A stretch of 58,611 nt of DNA, taken from assembly GCA_043809645.1 (NCBI GenBank), contig JBDROX010000028.1, positions 1 to 58,611 on the forward strand. The letters are read 5' to 3'. Positions within the stretch are counted from its first letter, which is position 1, and each line of letters begins with the position of its first letter. The translations under genes and the position numbers were made by a program. The notes below the pieces were generated by a model, which was not told where the DNA came from, did no database searches, and saw nothing but the letters and a program-made list of their open reading frames with translations. The DNA is from Candidatus Magasanikiibacteriota bacterium (GTDB taxonomy: Bacteria > Patescibacteriota > Patescibacteriia > Magasanikbacterales > UBA922). Below, piece by piece: positions 11,588 through 52,527 of this stretch.

Positions 11588-12675
11588 ATGACTGAAGAAG
11601 ACAAAAAAATTTTTGTATGTATGTCAGGTGGTGTTGACTCTTCTGTTGCTGCGGCTCTTTTGGTACACGATGGATATGATGTTACTGGGGCGTTCATGGT
11701 GAACTATGATAATGGTGAATCATGTTGGAGAAACGACTATAGGGATGCACTTCGGGTTGCTGCGAAACTTGGTATTCCTCTTCTTAAGTTAGATTTTACA
11801 AAAGACTATAAAGAACAGGTGCTGGATCACATGTTCGCTGAATATAAAAAGGGAAGAACGCCAAATCCGGATGTACTCTGTAATAAGTTAATAAAGTTTG
11901 GTGCCTGGATAGAGAAGGCGAGAGAGCTTGGTTTTGATGCCATTGCAACAGGGCACTACGCAAGCATTAAAATTTTAAAACATAAAAACATAAAAACATA
12001 TCATCTTATTCAGGCGAAGGATGGAAACAAAGATCAGACATATTTTTTGCATCAGTTAAATCAGGAGCAGCTTGCTCATACTTTATTTCCGCTTGGAGAC
12101 TATACGAAAGATGAAGTGCGGTCACTTGCCCGTGAGTTTGAGCTTCCAACAGCAGAGAAAGAGGAGAGTATGGGGATCTGTTTCGTGGGCGAAGTTCCAA
12201 TGAAGGAATTTCTTCAAGAAAGGATTGAGAAAAAACAAGGAAATATTGTGACCTCTAGTGGAGACGTGGTTGGAAAGCATGATGGACTTGCATTTTATAC
12301 TATTGGACAGCGTCACTTGGGAATTCAAAATTCAAAATTCAAAAAGCAGATGGCAAGCCGCTCTACGTGGTCGGTAAGAATAGTCAGAAGAATGAACTCA
12401 TTGTTGGGTTTGAAGATGGCTCAATGCTTTGGGCCAAGGAAATAGTAGTGGAAAACCCTCATTGGATCAGTGGACAGGCTCCTCAGTATCCTTTACAATG
12501 TAAGGTAAGACTACGTCATAGGCAAAAGCTGCAAGCAGCTGAAATTCGAAATTCGAAATTCGAAATTGGGGAAATTCAGGTTGTCTTTGAATCACCTCAG
12601 AGAGCCGTTACTCCAGGACAGTTTGCAGTGTTTTACAGAGAAAAAGAGTGTCTCGGAGGGGGAGTTATTCATTAA
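11588..12675 (+). CDS. mnmA: tRNA 2-thiouridine(34) synthase MnmA, split into two frames at 12340-12346
   Basis: N-terminal part has the PP-loop CMSGGVDSSV, NPDVLCN, ATGHYA and KDQTYFL. The downstream -1 frame reads ADGKPLYVVGKN...RAVTPGQFAVFYREKECLGGGVI, which is the conserved C-terminus. Frames 11588-12445 and 12346-12675 must be joined. Confidence 0.85.
12320..12347 (+). repeat. 7-nt tandem array GGAATTC AAAATTC AAAATTC AAAAAGC (in mnmA, at the frame break)
   Basis: Read directly; it encodes GIQNSKFKK. Confidence 0.9.
12541..12577 (+). repeat. 7-nt tandem array GAAATTC x3, GAAATTG, GG GAAATTC (in the mnmA C-terminal part)
   Basis: Read directly; it encodes EIRNSKFEIGEI. Confidence 0.9.
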
Positions 12676-23380: not shown

Positions 23381-24098
23381 TATGCGACCTCTCATCAGTG
23401 TCATTATTCCGGTCTATAATCAGGTAGACAAGTTTAAGCTTGCTTTGCTATCGATCGAGAATCAGACCTATAAGAATATTGAGATTATTGTAATAGACGA
23501 CGGCAGTGAAGAAGAAATTCAAAATTCAAAATTCAAAATTAGTAAAGATATTCCACTTCATCTTTATAGACAAGAAAATAAAGGAGCCCCAGCTGCGAGG
23601 AACAAGGGATTTGAATTATCAAAAGGGGAATACGTCATATTTTGGGATGCAGATATTATTGCATATCCAGAAATGCTGGAGAAGATGTATCTAGCTCTAC
23701 AGCAAGAAAGCCAGGTGAGCTATGCATATTCAGATTTTTATTTTGGAAAGAAGAAGATGAAAGCAGGGGGGTTTGATGGGGAGAGATTGAAAAAAAATAA
23801 TTATATTACAACAGCAAGTCTTATTCATCGTGAGGATGTTGTTCCGTTTGATGAGAATCTAAAACGTTTTCAGGATTGGGATCTGTGGCTCACAATGCTC
23901 GAGCAGGGGAAGAAGGGTGTCCATGTCCCAGAGTTTCTTTTTACAATTATTCCTGGTGGAACCATGAGTTCCTGGCTTCCATCATTCGCATATAAAAAAC
24001 CCTGGAGATGGATTCCAGGGATTGAGAAGAAAGTGGAAAAATATGAGGAGGCAAAGGGAGTAGTCCAGAAAAAACATCATTTAAAAACATCTGCTTAG
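23373..24098 (+). CDS. GT2 glycosyltransferase
   Basis: ISVIIPVYNQ...VIDDGSEE...NKGAPAARNKG...WDADI (DxD). The start overlaps the GT4 stop. Confidence 0.85.
   Translation: MNNMRPLISVIIPVYNQVDKFKLALLSIENQTYKNIEIIVIDDGSEEEIQNSKFKISKDIPLHLYRQENKGAPAARNKGFELSKGEYVIFWDADIIAYPEMLEKMYLALQQESQVSYAYSDFYFGKKKMKAGGFDGERLKKNNYITTASLIHREDVVPFDENLKRFQDWDLWLTMLEQGKKGVHVPEFLFTIIPGGTMSSWLPSFAYKKPWRWIPGIEKKVEKYEEAKGVVQKKHHLKTSA
23514..23541 (+). repeat. 7-nt tandem array GAAATTC AAAATTC AAAATTC AAAATTA (in GT2 gene)
   Basis: Read directly; it encodes EIQNSKFKI. Confidence 0.9.
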
Positions 24099-33601: not shown

Positions 33602-34273
33602 ATGAACACTGGAGTACTCTACATTGTTGCAACACCAATTGGAAATCTCAAAGATATTACTTTTCGGGCAGTTGAGACTTTGAAAAAAGTTGATTTAGTT
33701 TTGTGTGAAGACACACGAGTTACAAAGAAACTTTTGTCGCATTATCAGATTGACACACGGACAATGAGCTACCATCAGCATTCGGATGACAAGAAAGTGA
33801 AAGAAATTATTGAACTGCTTCAAGACGGAAAAGATCTTGCGCTGGTGACTGATGCCGGTACGCCGGGAATTTCGGATCCAGGTGGCCACCTTGTGGCTGA
33901 AATTCGAAATTCGAAATTCGAAATTCGGGCAGTTCCTATTCCAGGTCCTTCCGCGGTTACTGCGGCTTTGTCGATTTCTGGATTTCCAACTGACAAGTTT
34001 TTCTTTATGGGCTTTCCTCCACATAAGAACAAAAGAAAGAAATTTTTTACTGAAGTTGCTGATGCCAAGTATACGGTTGCGTTTTATGAATCAAGTCATA
34101 GAATACAGAAAGCACTGAAAGAGCTCGAAGAAGTGCTAAAGAAAGATAGAGAGATGTGTGTTTGCCGGGAATTAACAAAGAAATTCGAGAGTATCTATTG
34201 TGGAACGGTTGAAGAGATTCTAGAAATGGAAATCCCGGAGAAAGGGGAGTTTGTTGTTTTAGTAAGAAAATAG
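33602..34273 (+). CDS. rsmI: 16S rRNA (cytidine1402-2'-O)-methyltransferase
   Basis: LYIVATPIGNLKDITFRA...LCEDTR...DAGTPGISDPG...PGPSAVTAAL. Confidence 0.93.
   Translation: MNTGVLYIVATPIGNLKDITFRAVETLKKVDLVLCEDTRVTKKLLSHYQIDTRTMSYHQHSDDKKVKEIIELLQDGKDLALVTDAGTPGISDPGGHLVAEIRNSKFEIRAVPIPGPSAVTAALSISGFPTDKFFFMGFPPHKNKRKKFFTEVADAKYTVAFYESSHRIQKALKELEEVLKKDREMCVCRELTKKFESIYCGTVEEILEMEIPEKGEFVVLVRK
33899..33929 (+). repeat. 7-nt tandem array GAAATTC x4 followed by GGG (in rsmI)
   Basis: Read directly; it encodes EIRNSKFEIR. Confidence 0.95.
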
Positions 34274-36577: not shown

Positions 36578-37531
36578 ATGGATTATAAAAAACTAAAAGA
36601 ATTTGGCAAAGTGAAGCTCAATGAGCCACTTGCCAAGTACACAACATTCAAGATCGGTGGACCAGCTGATTGCTTTGTGATAGTGGACACATCAGAAAAT
36701 TTTGCAGAAGTTCTGAAGTATTTAGATGGTGTTGGGCAAGATTACATCATCCTAGCCGGAGGAAGCAATGTGCTTGTCGGTGATGCTGGATACAAAGGTG
36801 TGGTGATTCATCCGAGAAACTCGAAACTTGAAATTCGAAATTCGGGAATTCTTGTTGAAGCAGGATGTCCTACAGCAAGAGCTGCACAGGAATCTATCAA
36901 AGCAGGTTTTGTCGATTTTGCATGGGGAGTTGGGATTCCCGGAACTATTGGTGGTGCGATCCGTGGGAATGCAGGGGCTATGGGAAGTGAGATGAAAGAT
37001 CATGTAGAGAAGCTCGAAGTATACCGAGATGGAGAAGTCATCGAGCTTTCAAATGAAGAATGTGAATTTGGATATCGAGAAAGCATTTTCAAACATGGTG
37101 GGGGAATTATTCTACGTGCTTGGCTCAAGCTCGAAAAAGGTGATGCAGGGAAGGCTATGAAAGAGGCCATGGAGCACTTATCATATCGTGCGTGTAATCA
37201 GCCACAGGGTTTTGGAAGCGCTGGATGCACTTTCAAGAATCTTCCTATCTCAAAAGAGGAACAAGAAATTATTAAATCTAAAACAGATGACCCAAAAGTT
37301 CTTGAAACTATGGAAAAGTATAATAAAGTCCCGATTGGTCGACTTATTGAGCTATGTGGTTTGAGAGGTTTTCGGATTGGCAACGCAGGCGTGAGTGAAA
37401 AACATGGTAATTTTATTGTAAATCTTGGAGAAGCGACAGCAGAGGATGTACACACTGTAATTGAAAAAGTAAAAGAAAAAGTGTATACTACTTTTGGTAT
37501 TTCTATTCAAGAAGAAATCTATTTTATGTAA
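36578..37531 (+). CDS. murB: UDP-N-acetylmuramate dehydrogenase
   Basis: TFKIGGPADCF...GGGSNVLV...GIPGTIGGAIRGNAGA...AGCTFKN. Confidence 0.93.
   Translation: MDYKKLKEFGKVKLNEPLAKYTTFKIGGPADCFVIVDTSENFAEVLKYLDGVGQDYIILAGGSNVLVGDAGYKGVVIHPRNSKLEIRNSGILVEAGCPTARAAQESIKAGFVDFAWGVGIPGTIGGAIRGNAGAMGSEMKDHVEKLEVYRDGEVIELSNEECEFGYRESIFKHGGGIILRAWLKLEKGDAGKAMKEAMEHLSYRACNQPQGFGSAGCTFKNLPISKEEQEIIKSKTDDPKVLETMEKYNKVPIGRLIELCGLRGFRIGNAGVSEKHGNFIVNLGEATAEDVHTVIEKVKEKVYTTFGISIQEEIYFM
36816..36851 (+). repeat. 7-nt tandem array GAAACTC GAAACTT GAAATTC GAAATTC GGGAATTC (in murB)
   Basis: Read directly; it encodes RNSKLEIRNSGI. Confidence 0.9.
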
Positions 37532-39233: not shown

Positions 39234-39596
39234 ATGAATATCAACATCAAGTCGACAAATATCGAACTCACTGATGCAGTGAAAGAATATGCACTTGAGA
39301 AAATTGGGAGCTTAGAAAAATATTTCGATAATATCCAAGGGGCTGATATCGATCTTGGAATGCACAGTACGCATCATCAGAAAGGAAAGGTGTTTTATGC
39401 AGAAGTGAATATGCTTGTTCCTGGAAAGAAGCTTCGTGTCGTAAAGGACTCAGAGGATCAATACAAAGCCATAGACAAAGTAAAGGATCATCTCAAGGCT
39501 GAATTGGAAAAAATGAAAGGGAAGATGAGGTCATTTGACCAAGAGGAATTGAGGGGGGTGAAAGAATATCAGGAAGAAGATGAAATAGGAAATTAG
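39234..39596 (+). CDS. hpf: Ribosome hibernation promoting factor (HPF/RaiA family)
   Basis: MNINIKSTNIELTDAVKEYALEKIGSLEKYF... is the short-HPF fold sequence. Confidence 0.88.
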   Translation: MNINIKSTNIELTDAVKEYALEKIGSLEKYFDNIQGADIDLGMHSTHHQKGKVFYAEVNMLVPGKKLRVVKDSEDQYKAIDKVKDHLKAELEKMKGKMRSFDQEELRGVKEYQEEDEIGN

Positions 39597-39605
39597 AAAT
39601 TCGGG
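39582..39605 (+). repeat. 7-nt tandem array GAAATAG GAAATTA GAAATTC GGG spanning the hpf stop codon
   Basis: Read directly. Confidence 0.8.
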
Positions 39606-39634
39606 AAAAGAAAAAACCGCCAGTTGGCAGTTTT

Positions 39635-43920: not shown

Positions 43921-43949
43921 TTGACAAAATTGATACATTCTGATATAGT
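43921..43949 (+). promoter_or_regulatory. Near-consensus sigma70 promoter (TTGACA-17 nt-TATAGT) facing the DGR locus
   Basis: The -35 is at 43921-43926 and the -10 at 43944-43949, with a 17-nt spacer. Confidence 0.6.
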
Positions 43950-44115
43950 ACTCAGTCATATTTCAGCTTTCTTTTTGTCTTGTTTTAGCGAAAAAGATAG
44001 AAAGAAGGCTGGGAATATCTCCTGGCTAATGTTGCTCGCGAAGTTAAATCTCTTGTCGGTGTCTACAGGGTGCAGATGCTCATAGAGTGTGCTCGCGGGT
44101 GAAGGAGGACTTGCA

Positions 44116-44718
44116 GTGAGCAAGCCAACATCAAGACAGATGAAGGAGTTCTGGAGCCAGGTCGACGCAGGCCGGATAACTTCGGCCAACTTTCAGGCTT
44201 TCCTGGACAACCCCAACGTGGAAGTCGCCAAGCTGGCCGAATCAACGGTCTGGAAGACCATCGCGCTCGGCACTGGCCCGAAGAGCGGCAAGGCTTACGC
44301 CAAGGCGCTCAAGAAGGCTGGTTGTCGCGTCAGCGACTGGGCTCTCGACATGCTCAATCATGACGAGTTCAAGGTCTCTGAGGGAATGGAGATCGATCTC
44401 GTTTTCCTCTCCGGCTACGACCTCGGCTTCGCTGTGAGTGCTACGCGAGTTCAGATCTACGAGGCCGGTTTGGCTCAGGGCTACGAGCTTTGTCCGCCCG
44501 AGGTCGGTCCAGCGCTGCGACTGCAGTACAAGGATCAGTCAGCCGGCGAGTGGCTGTTCGTGGCGATGGAGTCGATCTCCGACTCGGAGGGCTACCCGGC
44601 CGTGTTCCACGTTGGGTACTATGGCAGTGAGTTGTGGCTGAACAGCAACTACGGCAATCCTGACAATGTCTGGAATTCGAACAACCGTTGGGTCTTCGTC
44701 CGTCCTCGCAAATCTCTT
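44116..44718 (+). CDS. GC-rich ORF encoding a about 200-aa protein whose C-terminus resembles a DGR (C-type-lectin-fold) variable region; no in-frame stop codon
   Basis: GTG at 44116 lies 7 nt after GAAGGAGG. G/C-rich third codon positions contrast with the AT-rich host. The C-terminus reads GYYGSELWLNSNYGNPDNVWNSNNRWVFVRPRK. The frame then runs on through AT-rich DNA to 46095, so the given end coordinate is where the GC-rich part stops. Confidence 0.6.
44600..44709 (+). other. DGR template-repeat-like or naive variable-repeat-like tract (AAY-codon rich)
   Basis: AAC AGC AAC TAC GGC AAT CCT GAC AAT GTC TGG AAT TCG AAC AAC has 7 AAY codons in 15, followed by the invariant-looking CGT TGG GTC TTC GTC CGT. 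Confidence 0.5.
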
Positions 44719-44722
44719 CATT

Positions 44723-44752
44723 CCCCGATTTTTTTGTCGGGGTTTTCTTTCT
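44723..44752 (+). terminator. GC hairpin CCCCGA-8 nt-TCGGGG followed by a T-rich tract (terminator and/or DGR target-site hairpin)
   Basis: Read directly. It sits 13 nt after the end of the GC-rich tract, between the convergent GC-rich ORF and avd. Confidence 0.5.
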
Positions 44753-45104
44753 ACCTTCTTATCCATCCCCCAAGCATTCGTCCGACCTCTTGTAATTTTT
44801 TTGAGATTTCCATATATTTTTTATTTCCTATCATGTCTATTTCCCACAAGAGTTGTACAAAGAATTTTAGAGAGTCAAACTTCGTATTTAGCACTTTCAG
44901 TTTTTCGGGTGTTTTATCTTTTGGTGCGTACTGTGCTTCAAGTGCACAGGCGAGACAGTCGGTAAATAATGCATCAATTTTTGCACCAAGGGTGTGGCGA
45001 GAGAATTTTGGAAGGTTGATCGTATATCCATGCCACACTTTATACACTTCTTTTAATGCAATAATGAGAGGTGTGCCAAAACTCCGTCGGGGGGGGGCTT
45101 TCAT
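44751..45104 (-). CDS. avd: DGR accessory variability determinant (Avd), four-helix-bundle protein
   Basis: 117 aa. The helix pattern and C-terminal ISKKLQEVGRMLGGWIRR closely resemble Bordetella bAvd (...IAEVGRILGSWIAR). It is adjacent to the DGR RT. Confidence 0.75.
   Translation of the reverse strand: MKAPPRRSFGTPLIIALKEVYKVWHGYTINLPKFSRHTLGAKIDALFTDCLACALEAQYAPKDKTPEKLKVLNTKFDSLKFFVQLLWEIDMIGNKKYMEISKKLQEVGRMLGGWIRR
45089..45097. repeat. G9/C9 homopolymer in codons 3-5 of avd, 12 nt upstream of the RT ATG
   Basis: Read directly (cgtcGGGGGGGGGcttt). It is the longest G/C homopolymer I noticed in this AT-rich window. Confidence 0.95.
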
Positions 45105-45108
45105 TGGT

Positions 45109-46095
45109 ATGAAGATTCAATTGCCGCATACGCGCAAAGATATTATCTGCCTAGAAAACTTACTTAGCGCCTGGCAGGAATTTATTATTGGAAAAAGAAA
45201 AAAGCGTGATGTGCAAGAATTTAGTTTCAACCTTATGGATAACATTGTATCACTTCATGAGGATCTAAAAAATAATACATACAGACATGGTGTCTATCAT
45301 AGTTTTTTCATCAATGATCCTAAGAGACGTCATATTCACAAAGCGCGTGTCCGCGACAGGCTTCTTCATCATGCAATTCATAGACTACTCTATCCATTCT
45401 TCGACAAAACATTTATTTCAGACTCATACTCTTGCAGAAAAAATAAAGGAACACATAAGGCTATGAATCGTTTCAGATCACTTACGTACAAAGCTAGTCA
45501 AAATCACACACGGACGTGCTGGGTGCTAAAATGTGACATTAAGAAATTTTTTGCCAGTGTTGATCAGAGTATTCTCCTTGCTATTTTAAAAAACTATATT
45601 CCTGACAAAAACATTATTTCACTTCTACAAGATATTATTACAAGTTTCAGTACTCAAGACAAACCAAACTCGGGCCTTCCTCTCGGTAATCTTACTTCAC
45701 AGCTTTTCGTCAATATGTACATGAATGAGTTTGATCAATTTATCAAACACAAATTAAAAATAAAACATTACATCAGATATGCAGATGATTTTGTTATTTT
45801 GTCAAACAGCAAGCAGTATCTTGAACATCTCATTCCACAAATTATCGACACACTCATGAAAAAACTCAAACTTACTCTTCATCCAAATAAACTATTCTTC
45901 AAAACAATTTCATTCGGAGTAGATTTTCTTGGGTGGATACAGTTTGTAGATCATAGAGTACTGCGAAAGGTAACAAAGAGAAGAATGTTTGCGAACCTTA
46001 AAAAGGACATCAGAAAAGAGGTCTTGCAATCGTATCGTGGTCTATTGGGGCATGGGAATGGATATAAACTTGAGAAGATAATTCTTGATTTGTGA
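45109..46095 (+). CDS. Diversity-generating retroelement reverse transcriptase
   Basis: RHIHKARVRDRLLHHAI, SDSYSCRKNKGTHKA, WVLKCDIKKFFASVD, GLPLGNLTSQLFVNMYMNEFD, YIRYADDFVIL and GVDFLGW. The LGNLTSQ motif and the about 330-aa size are DGR-clade hallmarks. An alternative in-frame ATG lies at 45064. Confidence 0.92.
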   Translation: MKIQLPHTRKDIICLENLLSAWQEFIIGKRKKRDVQEFSFNLMDNIVSLHEDLKNNTYRHGVYHSFFINDPKRRHIHKARVRDRLLHHAIHRLLYPFFDKTFISDSYSCRKNKGTHKAMNRFRSLTYKASQNHTRTCWVLKCDIKKFFASVDQSILLAILKNYIPDKNIISLLQDIITSFSTQDKPNSGLPLGNLTSQLFVNMYMNEFDQFIKHKLKIKHYIRYADDFVILSNSKQYLEHLIPQIIDTLMKKLKLTLHPNKLFFKTISFGVDFLGWIQFVDHRVLRKVTKRRMFANLKKDIRKEVLQSYRGLLGHGNGYKLEKIILDL

Positions 46096-47740: not shown

Positions 47741-47775
47741 GAAATAATGAAATAGAGAAATAAGAAATAAGGGGA
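47741..47775. repeat. Left arm of inverted repeat flanking the four-helix-bundle gene (GAAATAATGAAATA[GAGAAATA]AGAAATAAGGGGA)
   Basis: It is the reverse complement of 48139-48165, except for an 8-nt internal duplication. Confidence 0.85.
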
Positions 47776-47776
47776 T

Positions 47777-48135
47777 TTAGTCCTTACTTTTTCTTGCTAA
47801 TTGAGATTTTATAAGTTTGTTCAATCTGATCTCAATTTCCTTTGCTAGGGTTTTTAGCATAGTAAATTCTTCTTTGCTTATTTGTTTTCTTTCAAACATG
47901 AGACTATGCCAGTGTCTTGATTCCAGAAGCGAAGCTCGTGCATTGTAATAGAATTTGTTCTTAATCCTTCGGCGATATTTACCACAACTGAATCTACACT
48001 CCGAATCATCTGATCTCCAATAATTTTTTGTTCTTTCCAATTAAGTCTTGAATAAATTTCCCAAGATTTTTTCGAATATTCTCTTGAATTCTTGTATACA
48101 TCTAACTTCGGCAGTTCAATATAGCTGGAGTTCAT
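47777..48135 (-). pseudogene. Four-helix-bundle protein (23S rRNA intervening-sequence / Avd superfamily) with a 1-nt frameshift
   Basis: The N-terminal frame (from 48135) reads ...IGDQMIRSVDSVVVNIAEG. The C-terminal frame (to 47777) reads KNKFYYNARASLLESRHW...LNKLIKS. Together they give the family pattern Q..RA..SI..NIAEG...F...A.GS..E. The break is near 47955-47965. GGGGA lies 4 nt before the ATG. Confidence 0.7.
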
Positions 48136-48138
48136 AAT

Positions 48139-48165
48139 TCCCCTTATTTCTTATTTCATTATTTC
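48139..48165. repeat. Right arm of inverted repeat flanking the four-helix-bundle gene (TCCCCTTATTTCTTATTTCATTATTTC)
   Basis: Read directly. It contains the complement of the gene's SD. Confidence 0.85.
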
Positions 48166-48169
48166 TTTA

Positions 48170-51723: not shown

Positions 51724-52527
51724 ATGGCACGGGAGGAGTACTCACTTCCCCGATCTGGGGATGTGGACAAGATTTATGATATTCACAACACGCGGTGGGA
51801 GGGCGCGGAGCTTCGTCTGTCAGACAGTCAGGTTTCCCATCTTTATGATGATGGGCTCATACGGGTCATGCGCGTGAATGGTACAGTGACAGGTGTTCTG
51901 TTTATACATCGTATGTTCACTGGTGGAGCGGTCCCAGATCCGTACCAATTTCGCCTGTGGGAGCGCCTGGTACATGCAACTGCACCAGGCATTGCTCCTG
52001 ATACAATCATCATGTGGTCTATTGATGTGCCGGCTGGAAGTCCAAAGGGACTTGGAACTCGACTGATCGCAGCAGCGAAGGAAGAGTTTCGGGCGACGCC
52101 CTACCTGGCGACGTTCAGTCCAGTCAAGGGATATAAGTCATTTTGCCAAGAGATCATATCTCGCGGCGCTATTCCGAAGCGCAGGGTAGAGGAGTCTGGC
52201 ATCTACCTTTTTCTGGCTACCTCGATGAAGCGCGGGTACGAGGCCTACCTGAGATATCTCCAGGATGTTCCTGATACACACTTCATGATGCCAGAAGATT
52301 GGTATCGTGGGCGTGGTTGGGGATCGCTGTGTCCTGTGAATCGCTTCCATGCGGTTCGCAATGGTGCATCGCTTGTCGGTGTGTGGCCGGCAGGTCCTGG
52401 TGCCCGGCCATGTTCTCCATTCACGGTGATGTACTCCTACAAGGGATTCGAGACCACTGTCGCAGAGAGCTTTCGTAAGCTTCCGGATCAAGTCTTAGGA
52501 CGGAGAGCGGTTTTCAATCTCGTGTGA
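51724..52527 (+). CDS. Malonyl-CoA decarboxylase (MCD) catalytic-domain-like protein, GC-rich
   Basis: MWSIDVPAGSPKGLGTRLIAAAKEEF...ATFSPVKGYKSF aligns by eye to MCD FYSIS..GLQG.ELG..LIK.V...L......F.SLSPIPGF. CPVNRFHAVRNGASL...TVMYSY aligns to NPVA.FHL.NGA......MANYRY. The N-terminal helical domain is absent. Confidence 0.5.
   Translation: MAREEYSLPRSGDVDKIYDIHNTRWEGAELRLSDSQVSHLYDDGLIRVMRVNGTVTGVLFIHRMFTGGAVPDPYQFRLWERLVHATAPGIAPDTIIMWSIDVPAGSPKGLGTRLIAAAKEEFRATPYLATFSPVKGYKSFCQEIISRGAIPKRRVEESGIYLFLATSMKRGYEAYLRYLQDVPDTHFMMPEDWYRGRGWGSLCPVNRFHAVRNGASLVGVWPAGPGARPCSPFTVMYSYKGFETTVAESFRKLPDQVLGRRAVFNLV

What the first reader, a model, noticed from the sequence alone, without database searches (positions are those of the whole stretch)
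44600..44743. AAY-rich tract looks like a DGR template repeat or a never-mutated variable repeat, but no partner copy is visible
Codons 44638-44709 read LNSNYGNPDNVWNSNNRWVFVRPR. Seven of 15 consecutive codons are AAC/AAT, and the tract ends in an invariant-looking RWVFVR. Together these are the classic look of a DGR TR and of C-type-lectin-fold variable regions. A diversified VR would normally have lost most of these AAY codons, so this is either the TR or a naive VR. A GC hairpin (44723-44742) follows, where DGR targets carry their recognition hairpin, although it could simply be a terminator. I scanned both strands of the window by eye, including the other two GC-rich islands, and found no second copy. 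The cognate repeat may lie outside the window or be lost.
Basis: partly seen in the sequence, partly recalled or inferred. Interest (0 to 1): 0.65.

Follow-up and report, generated by a model that had tools for sequence, protein, structure and literature searches.

The report
Collapsed DGR with fused VR–TR repeat
The Asn-codon-rich tract is the only repeat left of a protein-diversifying retroelement (DGR) in a Patescibacteria genome: its front half comes from the gene's variable region and its back half from the template, because the ~350 bases that normally separate them were deleted, which most likely switched the system off.

Summary
In detail: 7 of 15 codons are AAY, RWVFVR is family-invariant, a hairpin sits at 44723-44742, and the window holds no second copy. 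Relatives (about 45 cassettes) share one layout: target-VR, stop codon, ~350 nt, TR, hairpin, avd(-), RT. This is the published CPR "B3" architecture. In 33 VR/TR pairs, 550 of 571 mismatches fall at TR adenines. The window has one repeat. Its 5' half (44575-~44630) scores as a diversified VR. Its 3' half (~44636-44712) scores as a pristine TR, and its 3' flank is the TR type: no stop codon, TCTCTTCAT motif, hairpin plus T-run abutting avd. The VR flank, the TR promoter-like motif and a conserved ~100-nt structured RNA 5' of the TR are absent. So the tract is a VR::TR recombinant left by deletion between the two direct repeats. A 131-bp sequenced fragment spans the junction. Two other MAGs (L040, L043) show the same fusion at later decay stages. 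It is probably an inactivated DGR. It is neither a naive VR nor a TR with a distant partner.

The parts
43921..43949 (+). Near-consensus sigma-70-like promoter (TTGACA-17-TGnTATAGT) upstream of the target gene
   Evidence: 11 of 12 matches. Function is inferred.
44116..44574 (+). Body of the DGR target gene (GTG start giving MSKPTS...). About 200-aa Patescibacteria family with no Pfam domain. GC 0.58 against 0.41 for the surroundings.
   Evidence: 38 homologues at about 50% identity; P0035 has the same N-terminus; GC
44575..44630 (+). VR-derived 5' part of the single repeat (SDSEGYPAVFHVGYYGSEL), already diversified
   Evidence: At sites where at least 70% of family TRs have A, the window keeps A at 5 of 11. 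log10 LR(TR/VR) = -4.5, against a real-VR median of -4.6. 8 adenines at codon positions 1-2, equal to the VR median (TR median 14). A close relative in run X6 differs at 11 of 25 bases here, against 6% upstream.
44628..44640 (.). Crossover interval between VR-type and TR-type sequence (around TTGTGGCTG)
   Evidence: The change-point analysis places it between sites 44627 and 44630. It cannot be resolved further because the interval has no informative sites.
44636..44712 (+). TR-derived 3' part of the repeat (WLNSNYGNPDNVWNSNNRWVFVRPRK) with all template adenines intact
   Evidence: 16 of 16 family TR-A sites are A; log10 LR = +6.2, equal to the maximum for real TRs; none of 33 paired VRs is TR-like here. 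7 AAY, against 0-5 (median 0) in 92 VRs and a mode of 6 in 52 TRs.
44707..44722 (+). TR-type end and flank motif CGCAAA TCTCTTCATTC (IMH*-like; family consensus CGCAAC TCTCTTCATTTC). No stop codon.
   Evidence: VR ends in the family read CGCAAG TAG/TAA.
44723..44752 (+). TR-flank stem-loop CCCCGAt/GTCGGGG plus T-run. Terminator-like on the + strand, and positionally equivalent to the stem-loop just downstream of TR described for DGR RNAs.
   Evidence: Present at the same place with different stem sequences in 27 relatives and in L040. Literature: bioRxiv 10.1101/2023.10.23.563531.
44751..45104 (-). avd (accessory variability determinant), 117 aa, intact
   Evidence: PF22296 bAvd 4.8e-12, above cutoff. 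NF033474 DivGenRetAVD 7.2e-20, 71.3 bits, below the 80-bit cutoff.
45088..45096 (.). G9 homopolymer at the avd N-terminus, 12 nt before the RT start. This is a family trait.
   Evidence: G7-G13 in 81 of 100 cassettes
45109..46095 (+). DGR-type reverse transcriptase, 328 aa, intact (LGNLTSQ, YADD)
   Evidence: RVT_1 2.2e-24. 56-66% identical to RTs of cassettes with proven A-specific VR/TR pairs, and all 129 invariant columns are kept.
44089..46095 (+). 668-codon read-through ORF created by the fusion: target, then TR flank, then antisense avd, then the RT frame. A consequence of the deletion, probably not a real protein.
   Evidence: The open stretch upstream of the RT is the longest of 37 cassettes.

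Best explanation
The locus is a diversity-generating retroelement of the Patescibacteria-specific type (architecture B3: target-VR ... TR-(avd)-RT) whose variable repeat and template repeat have fused. In intact relatives the ~135-nt VR ends the target gene. It is followed by a stop codon, a CTTGG-rich flank and a terminator. About 350 nt downstream lie a promoter-like motif, a ~100-nt structured RNA domain, the TR, a short conserved motif and a stem-loop with a T-run. Then come avd on the opposite strand and the RT. In the window a deletion between the two direct repeats removed everything from the middle of the VR to the middle of the TR. What remains is one hybrid repeat: the 5' part is VR (already diversified) and the 3' part is TR (all adenines intact), followed by the TR flank, avd and RT.

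Shown: the anatomy, the hybrid composition, the missing elements, and that the junction exists in a sequenced DNA fragment.

Inferred: the deletion arose by recombination, single-strand annealing or slippage between the repeats. Possibly it started from a break at the VR 3' end, because the crossover is central and not in the longest identical stretch. The DGR can no longer diversify this gene, because it has no separate template, no VR-type end or flank, and no 5' RNA domain or TR promoter. The target ORF has lost its stop codon, so its mRNA probably ends at the hairpin as a non-stop message. The event is recent, because avd and RT are intact.
For: Avd and RT lie next to the tract. The architecture is conserved in about 36 genome loci and 9 of 9 informative RT-anchored metagenome loci. 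550 of 571 VR/TR mismatches fall at TR adenines in 33 relatives (20 of 20 in each of L003 and L002). The hybrid model beats all-TR by 4.8 and all-VR by 6.5 log10 units, with the change point at 44627|44630. The null from 92 VRs and 52 TRs agrees. The 3' flank is TR-type with no stop codon. The tract ends 36 nt from the avd stop, like TRs in relatives (median 55 nt to the avd hit). The covariance model of the 5' TR-RNA domain hits 43 of 44 independent cassettes (E 1e-10 to 1e-27) but nothing in the window with filters off (best 8.7 bits); the sequence motif is also absent. In run X2 an adapter-flanked 131-bp insert is 100% identical to 44606-44736 and spans the junction. The central VR/TR identity run in relatives is about 11 nt, too short for an assembler to jump across. 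A close relative in run X6 diverges exactly at the repeat's variable codons, and not at window adenines. There are independent fused cases. L040 has the same split, the TR flank abutting avd, and no 5' domain. L043 has a TR-type flank, no stop codon, and has lost avd and RT.
Against: No intact allele of the same species was found for comparison: the best RT relative is 67% identical, and the A-wildcard DNA scan of metagenome contigs found nothing. The window's own TR is therefore inferred from family A-site conservation, not observed. No public read covers 44573-44605. The X2 fragment may represent a single molecule, and it is unknown whether X2 is independent of the assembly. Simple homologous recombination would favour the 25-nt identical run at the 3' end (30 of 33 pairs), not the centre. 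Intact avd and RT could also mean the system still has a function.
Confidence: 0.78

Rival explanations
1. Assembly artefact. The organism has an intact VR, spacer and TR, and the assembler (or a chimeric read) joined the VR's 5' half to the TR's 3' half.
For: The window is a metagenome-type contig. VR/TR repeats and population-level VR heterogeneity are known to trouble assemblers. No public read covers 44573-44605. An X1 contig ends at 44572, right at the repeat boundary.
Against: An adapter-flanked 131-bp insert in X2 carries the junction with 100% identity. The identity run through the centre is only about 11 nt in relatives, shorter than any usual k-mer. Two other assemblies show the same fusion with later changes that an artefact would not produce: a new stop codon in L040, and loss of avd and RT in L043.
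Confidence: 0.1
2. The whole tract 44575-44712 is the genuine TR, with an unusually A-poor 5' half, joined to the target body at the repeat's 5' boundary by deletion or misassembly.
For: The window's own TR is not observed independently. A few family TRs lack A at some of the sites used. The junction at about 44575 would lie in the stretch no read covers.
Against: The all-TR model is 4.8 log10 units worse than the hybrid. The 5' half has 8 position-1/2 adenines, against a TR median of 14 and only two of 49 TRs at 8 or fewer (5 and 6). The X6 relative differs at 11 of 25 bases there, but a template should be conserved like the gene body (94%), and only 2 of those mismatches are at window adenines. 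L040 shows the same split even more sharply (-10.2 / +4.4).
Confidence: 0.06
3. Naive, never-diversified VR of a target whose TR lies outside the window.
For: 16 of 16 template adenines are intact in the 3' half. Orphan targets far from any RT are common in this family.
Against: The flank is TR-type, not VR-type: no stop codon, TCTCTTCAT plus stem-loop plus T-run, directly abutting avd(-)/RT. The 5' half is diversified. Partial homing would diversify the 3' half first, not last (established DGR mechanism: cDNA integration starts at the VR 3' end, PMC3240598 abstract). No VR among 92 looks like this except the other fused loci.
Confidence: 0.02
4. The fused cassette is still functional. Intact RT-Avd uses the target mRNA (hybrid repeat plus downstream stem-loop) as template to diversify remote paralogous targets, or the collapse is a selected way of fixing a variant.
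For: RT and Avd are full length with all invariant residues in both the window and L040. L040 has acquired a stop codon exactly at the repeat end, which suggests the fused gene is kept. Many genomes carry orphan targets of this family. The 3' half keeps every template adenine.
Against: The 5' RNA domain is present in 43 of 44 cassettes and is missing here. In the prototype DGR, RNA both upstream and downstream of TR is required for cDNA synthesis. No other family member lies in the 58.6-kb window. L043 shows that the endpoint is loss of avd and RT.
Confidence: 0.08

Closest known systems
Patescibacteria/CPR diversity-generating retroelements, architecture B3 = TR-(avd)-RT (Wu et al. 2018, PMC5758913; DGR clade 2 of Roux et al. 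2021, PMC8144416)
   Same: Same gene order and strands: avd on the reverse strand directly upstream of the RT, and the TR directly upstream of avd. The RT is 56-67% identical to RTs of such cassettes. Same target family, TR flank motif and stem-loop.
   Different: There is only one repeat. The VR 3' half, target stop codon, VR flank, target terminator, TR promoter-like motif, 5' RNA domain and TR 5' half are missing. Published surveys catalogue cassettes with TR/VR pairs. I found no description of VR::TR fusions ('recombination' and 'deletion' each occur 0 times in PMC5758913).
Bordetella phage BPP-1 DGR (mtd-VR, avd, TR, brt)
   Same: RT plus Avd plus an A-rich template whose adenines map to codon positions 1-2 of AAY codons. 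The VR lies at the C-terminus of the target. The repeat ends differ between VR and TR (IMH versus IMH*). A stem-loop lies just downstream of TR.
   Different: avd is on the opposite strand. The TR RNA appears to be a discrete unit with its own 5' structured domain and a terminator-like 3' end. The target is a small cellular protein with no detectable sequence similarity to Mtd. In the window the template/target pair is collapsed.
Deletion between closely spaced direct repeats (RecA-mediated crossover, single-strand annealing or replication slippage)
   Same: Two ~135-nt direct repeats, about 84% identical and about 490 nt apart start to start in relatives. One hybrid repeat remains and the intervening DNA is lost.
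   Different: The crossover is not in the longest identical run, which is 25 nt at the 3' end in 30 of 33 pairs. It is central in both the window and L040. That may point to a break at the VR 3' end, the site where DGR homing initiates, as the trigger. This is inference only (n = 2).

Membership tests
Diversity-generating retroelement (DGR) | Reverse transcriptase of the DGR clade (RVT_1 domain; [LIV]GxxxSQ in motif 4 and YxDD) | tested here: met
   RVT_1 2.2e-24. LGNLTSQ and YADD are invariant in the alignment with RTs of cassettes that have A-specific VR/TR pairs. That the SQ motif is DGR-specific is from my own knowledge; I did not find it stated in the papers read.
Diversity-generating retroelement (DGR) | Accessory protein Avd | tested here: met
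   PF22296 bAvd 46.8 bits, above the 40-bit cutoff. NF033474 71.3 bits, below the 80-bit cutoff.
Diversity-generating retroelement (DGR) | A TR/VR pair whose differences lie at TR adenines | tested here: not met
   There is only one repeat in 58.6 kb. The A-wildcard scan of metagenome contigs found nothing. The feature is met in 33 relatives (550 of 571 mismatches). The rest of the source genome could not be searched.
Diversity-generating retroelement (DGR) | VR-type 3' end (IMH) and target-side flank distinct from the TR end (IMH*) | tested here: not met
   The window has only the TR-type end, CGCAAA TCTCTTCAT plus stem-loop. Family VRs end CGCAAG TAG/TAA plus a CTTGG-rich flank. A conserved VR-flank hairpin in the family could not be confirmed.
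Diversity-generating retroelement (DGR) | Template RNA with required flanking RNA elements upstream and downstream of TR | tested here: not met
   The downstream stem-loop is present. The upstream structured domain is absent, although it is present in 43 of 44 independent cassettes.
Diversity-generating retroelement (DGR) | Ongoing A-specific diversification of the VR in the population | not testable with these tools
   Public runs hold this organism only at about 2-4x as Logan contigs. The source reads are not available.
CPR DGR architecture B3 (TR-(avd)-RT) | TR immediately upstream of a reverse-strand avd, followed by a forward-strand RT | tested here: met
   The TR-type sequence ends at 44712; avd(-) is 44751-45104; RT(+) starts at 45109. 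The definition is in PMC5758913, Figure 5 legend.
C-type-lectin-fold DGR variable proteins | VR displayed on a C-type lectin (CLec) fold | tested here: inconclusive
   The AlphaFold2 model is confident (pLDDT 88.7, pTM 0.78). 23 of the top 24 PDB matches are C-type lectin domains, but all are weak (E 0.12-1.2, TM about 0.45 by target length, rmsd 5-10 A), and no known DGR target is among them. There is no sequence-level hit to Pfam or PDB.

The most novel reading that the evidence does not exclude
VR::TR collapse is not just decay. Either it is triggered by the DGR's own initiation step (a break at the VR 3' end repaired by annealing to the nearby TR, which would explain central crossovers in two independent cases). 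Or the fused repeat, now transcribed from the strong target promoter and still followed by the TR stem-loop, continues to serve intact RT-Avd as a template for remote paralogous targets without the 5' RNA domain.
Probability: 0.1. Interest if true: 0.6.

Novelty: new variant of a known kind. Interest (0 to 1): 0.4.

Why it matters
It documents a natural failure mode of DGRs: the template and its target, being direct repeats a few hundred bases apart, can recombine and destroy the system. Three independent genomes appear to capture successive stages: a fresh fusion, a regained stop codon, and loss of avd and RT. DGR finders that require a TR/VR pair will miss such loci. Gene callers will also report a spurious 668-aa "target-RT fusion" protein. 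The comparison also shows which elements are always present in working cassettes of this clade: a 5' structured RNA domain, a TR-flank stem-loop and a VR-type flank. These give concrete, testable requirements for a DGR family that has never been studied experimentally.

Tried and rejected
1. A second copy inside the window: the repeat finder and an A-tolerant gapless scan of both strands found none.
2. A copy in public data: the tract with all adenines wildcarded found 0 hits in metagenome contigs.
3. The source contig: exact-protein look-ups of the RT and of LepA are not on record. No near-identical genome exists among 185k species representatives (best 50% identity for the target). The best RT in metagenomes is 67% identical, so no intact same-species allele was available.
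4. Naive VR: rejected on the flank and on the absence of a stop codon.
5. The other GC-rich island (51724-52527): an unrelated 267-aa ORF with no Pfam hit and no similarity to the tract.
6. GC island as contamination or horizontal transfer: rejected, because GC enrichment of about 15 points is a trait of the whole target family.
7. Sequence-level fold assignment: Pfam, NCBIfam and PDB profile searches found nothing.
8. A conserved VR-flank hairpin: RNAalifold gave no consensus. The small GGGTC/GACCC-type inverted repeats were seen only by eye.
9. Covariation of the TR-flank hairpin on a MAFFT alignment was weak because of register shifts. The claim rests on every sequence having its own stem at the same position.
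10. L043 was first taken as a possible naive VR and turned out to be another fusion.
11. Rfam: no family matches the 5' TR domain, and nothing in the window reaches gathering score.

Full report
**What is in the sequence.** Codons 44638-44709 read LNSNYGNPDNVWNSNNRWVFVRPR, and seven of the fifteen codons from 44641 are AAC/AAT. Elsewhere in the same ORF AAY codons are 4 of 185, so the enrichment is far beyond chance within the gene (P about 1e-8). Comparable AAY densities do occur elsewhere in this AT-rich window. A 7-bp hairpin at 44723-44742 followed by a T-run is real (-12.3 kcal/mol, z = -3.2). No second copy of the tract exists in the window, by repeat search or by a scan of both strands that forgives mismatches at adenines of either copy.

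The tract ends a ~200-codon GC-rich gene (44116-44715). Immediately downstream lie a bAvd-family gene on the minus strand (44751-45104; PF22296; NF033474 just below cutoff) and a reverse transcriptase (45109-46095; RVT_1) with LGNLTSQ and YADD. There is no stop codon after RPRK. The frame stays open for 668 codons, through the antisense of avd and into the RT frame.

**The family and its normal layout.** The 200-aa protein has no Pfam or PDB relative. It belongs to a Patescibacteria family: 38 database homologues and 293 loci in species-representative genomes. In the family alignment the C-terminus is hypervariable exactly where the window has Asn or other A-containing codons. RWVF is nearly invariant and all homologues stop right after RPRK/RRK. 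About 36 genome loci and 9 RT-anchored metagenome loci share one architecture:
- target(+) ending in a ~135-nt VR;
- about 350 nt of spacer (263-406);
- a TR;
- about 55 nt;
- avd(-), then RT(+).

This is the published B3 architecture, TR-(avd)-RT, which accounts for 90% of CPR DGRs (PMC5758913). A Patescibacteria-restricted DGR clade is also described (PMC8144416). These relatives are genuine DGRs. In L003 and L002 all 20 of 20 VR/TR mismatches are at TR adenines, and over 33 pairs the figure is 550 of 571.

**Two kinds of flank.**
- VRs end CGCAAG TAG/TAA, followed by a CTTGG-rich stretch and a GC-rich terminator.
- TRs end CGCAAC TCTCTTCATTTC, followed at once by a stem-loop and TTTTGTTTT, then the antisense end of avd.

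The stem sequence differs between loci (TCTCCC/GGGAGA, ACCCGTC/GACGGGT, CCACCC/GGGTGG and others) but its position is constant. The window reads CGCAAA TCTCTTCATTC CCCCGAtttttttgTCGGGG TTTTCTTTCT and then avd. That is the TR flank. So the hairpin is the TR-side stem-loop, which corresponds in position to the stem-loop just downstream of TR reported for many DGR RNAs. It is not a target-recognition hairpin.

**The tract is a chimera.** At alignment columns where at least 70% of 33 family TRs carry A, the window has A at 16 of 16 sites from 44630 onward but at only 5 of 11 sites before that.
- A position-specific likelihood model gives log10 LR(TR versus VR) of -4.5 for the 5' half (real VRs: median -4.6) and +6.2 for the 3' half (real TRs: maximum 6.2).
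- A VR-to-TR change point between 44627 and 44630 beats an all-TR model by 4.8 and an all-VR model by 6.5 log10 units.
- None of the 33 paired VRs has a TR-like 3' half.
- A broader count agrees. In the 3' half, 92 VRs have 0-5 AAY (median 0), 52 TRs have a mode of 6, and the window has 7. In the 5' half the window has 8 first/second-position adenines, equal to the VR median, against a TR median of 14.

Independent support comes from a read in run X6 from a close relative. It is 94% identical over 44467-44592 and then has 11 mismatches in 25 bases at the family's variable codons. Only two of those fall at window adenines. That is expected for two VRs and not for a template.

**What is missing.** In all 33 canonical loci a conserved ~100-nt element lies immediately 5' of the TR, preceded by AAAAAATGAAGATACTTGG. 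RNAalifold predicts 23 pairs, 18 of them with compensatory changes, and Rfam has no such family. A covariance model built from it finds the element in 43 of 44 RT-anchored metagenome cassettes that were not used to build it (E 1e-10 to 1e-27, rough calibration). These include cassettes whose TRs serve other target families. With filters off it finds nothing in the window (best 8.7 bits), and a motif search is also negative. The window therefore lacks the VR 3' half, the stop codon, the VR flank, the target terminator, the TR promoter-like motif, the 5' RNA domain and the TR 5' half. That is exactly the interval between the middle of a VR and the middle of a TR.

**Real or artefact.** Public runs hold this organism only thinly. 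In run X2 one Logan contig consists of an Illumina adapter, 131 bases identical to window 44606-44736, and another adapter. That is a fully read short insert (identifying the adapters is my own knowledge). It contains four VR-type non-A sites (44608, 44615, 24, 27), the junction, the whole TR-type half and the TR flank. In relatives the identical run through the centre of the repeat is about 11 nt (6-25), too short for a k-mer assembler to cross. Two other assemblies show the same kind of fusion:
- **L040** (a WWE3 MAG) has a strongly diversified 5' half, a TR-like 3' half (LR -10.2 / +4.4), a TR flank abutting avd, no 5' RNA domain, and intact avd and RT. It has a TAG exactly where TR flanks read AAC.
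- **L043** has a repeat running without a stop codon into a TR-type flank, stem-loop and T-run. It has no avd or RT within 5 kb, and its gene GC has drifted to the host level.

I read these as successive decay stages. No read covers 44573-44605, and I found no same-species intact allele. An assembly artefact or a minority allele therefore remains possible, at about 10%.

**Mechanism and consequence (inferred).** A deletion between the two direct repeats fits the anatomy. In relatives the longest perfectly identical VR/TR run is the 25-nt 3' end (30 of 33 pairs). Yet the window and L040 both crossed over centrally. This may hint at repair of a break at the VR 3' end, where homing starts, by annealing to the nearby TR. 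With n = 2 this is speculation. After the fusion there is no separate template, no VR-type end, and no TR promoter or 5' RNA domain. In the prototype DGR, RNA on both sides of the TR is required for cDNA synthesis. I therefore consider the element inactive for this gene. The near-consensus promoter at 43921-43949 would now drive a transcript that lacks a stop codon and probably ends at the stem-loop. The intact avd and RT argue that the event is recent. The alternative, that they still act on remote targets, cannot be excluded without the rest of the genome.

**Fold.** An AlphaFold2 model built from the family alignment is confident (pLDDT 88.7, pTM 0.78). 23 of its top 24 PDB matches are C-type lectin domains. 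All are weak (E at least 0.12, TM about 0.45 by target length), and none is a known DGR target. The viral library gives nothing better. The lectin-fold idea is plausible but not established.

**Verdict.** The tract is a genuine DGR feature in a known clade and architecture, caught in a collapsed state: a VR::TR recombinant repeat. It is a new variant of a known kind and of moderate interest. The family-wide by-products are listed under noticed in passing: the structured 5' TR-RNA domain, the poly-G tract and the GC-rich targets.

Noticed in passing
Relatives, e.g. L003:3061-3166, L010:5756-5861; absent from the window: A conserved ~100-nt structured RNA domain lies immediately 5' of the TR in this DGR clade. 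It has 23 predicted pairs, 18 with compensatory changes, and is preceded by AAAAAATGAAGATACTTGG. There is no Rfam family. A covariance model finds it in 43 of 44 independent cassettes, including those with other target families. Together with the stem-loop plus T-run 3' of the TR, it suggests a discrete ~280-nt template RNA.
   Followed up: yes
window 45088-45096; L040 ~4750; 81 of 100 related cassettes: A G7-G13 homopolymer (mode G10) sits 2-40 nt upstream of the RT start, at or inside the avd N-terminal codons (PPP/PPR in the window). Its length varies between loci. It could be a slipped-strand on/off switch for avd or a regulatory element. My check of whether it is always coding was inconclusive.
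   Followed up: partly
window 44116-44715 and 80 related loci: Target genes of this family are about 15 GC points richer than their host genomes (median +0.151, n = 80), while the RT is at or below host GC. So the window's 'GC island' is a family trait, and it is unexplained.
   Followed up: partly
L040:3735-5906 (JAAZNV010000011.1, WWE3 MAG) and L043:5001-5520 (CAIJZI010000005.1): Two further independent VR::TR fusions. L040 has intact avd and RT and a TAG created at the repeat end. L043 has lost avd and RT and its GC has ameliorated.
   Followed up: yes
L002:7100-7470 (OBEQ011270214.1): A different decay form. The VR/TR pair is intact (20 of 20 A mismatches), but the TR flank CGCTTGCTTCACC runs straight into RT codon ~81 (LLHHA...), avd is gone, and the RT is truncated at about residue 203.
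   Followed up: partly
window 47745-48169: A frameshifted 23S_rRNA_IVP (four-helix-bundle, Avd-superfamily) gene, split into two ORFs at 47777-48040 and 47878-48135 on the minus strand. It is bracketed by a 35-nt, 89% inverted repeat (47745-47779 / 48135-48169) between murJ and corA. It is possibly a small mobile or intervening element.
   Followed up: partly
window 44089-46095: The fusion creates a 668-codon ORF because the 131 codons across antisense avd are stop-free and in frame with the RT. It is the longest such open stretch among 37 cassettes. It is probably coincidental, but a gene caller would annotate a false target-RT fusion protein.
   Followed up: partly
Relatives, VR 3' flanks (e.g. 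L010:5517-5575, L025:5625-5685): After the target stop codon the VR flank is rich in CTTGG/CCTTGGAAC motifs and often holds a small inverted repeat (GGGTC..GACCC; GGGAC..GTCCC in L025). This may be the target-recognition element. RNAalifold found no consensus.
   Followed up: partly
L068:1355-1459 and 1878-1982: Two identical-scoring copies of the 5' TR-RNA domain lie 523 nt apart upstream of one avd. This may be a cassette with two TRs.
   Followed up: no
window 12538-12577, 23511-23550, 33896-33935, 36813-36852, 39579-39618: A dispersed 40-nt repeat built on (GAAATTC)n, GCTGAAATTCGAAATTCGAAATTCGAAATT, occurs in five copies at 68-100% identity to the reference copy.
   Followed up: no
window 51724-52527: The second GC-rich island (GC 0.54) is a 267-aa ORF with no Pfam match. 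It is unrelated to the DGR target.
   Followed up: partly
L165, L166 (IMG/VR contigs): Only two distant relatives of the target family (35-38% identity) occur on viral contigs. L166 also carries the 5' TR-RNA domain. The family is essentially cellular.
   Followed up: no
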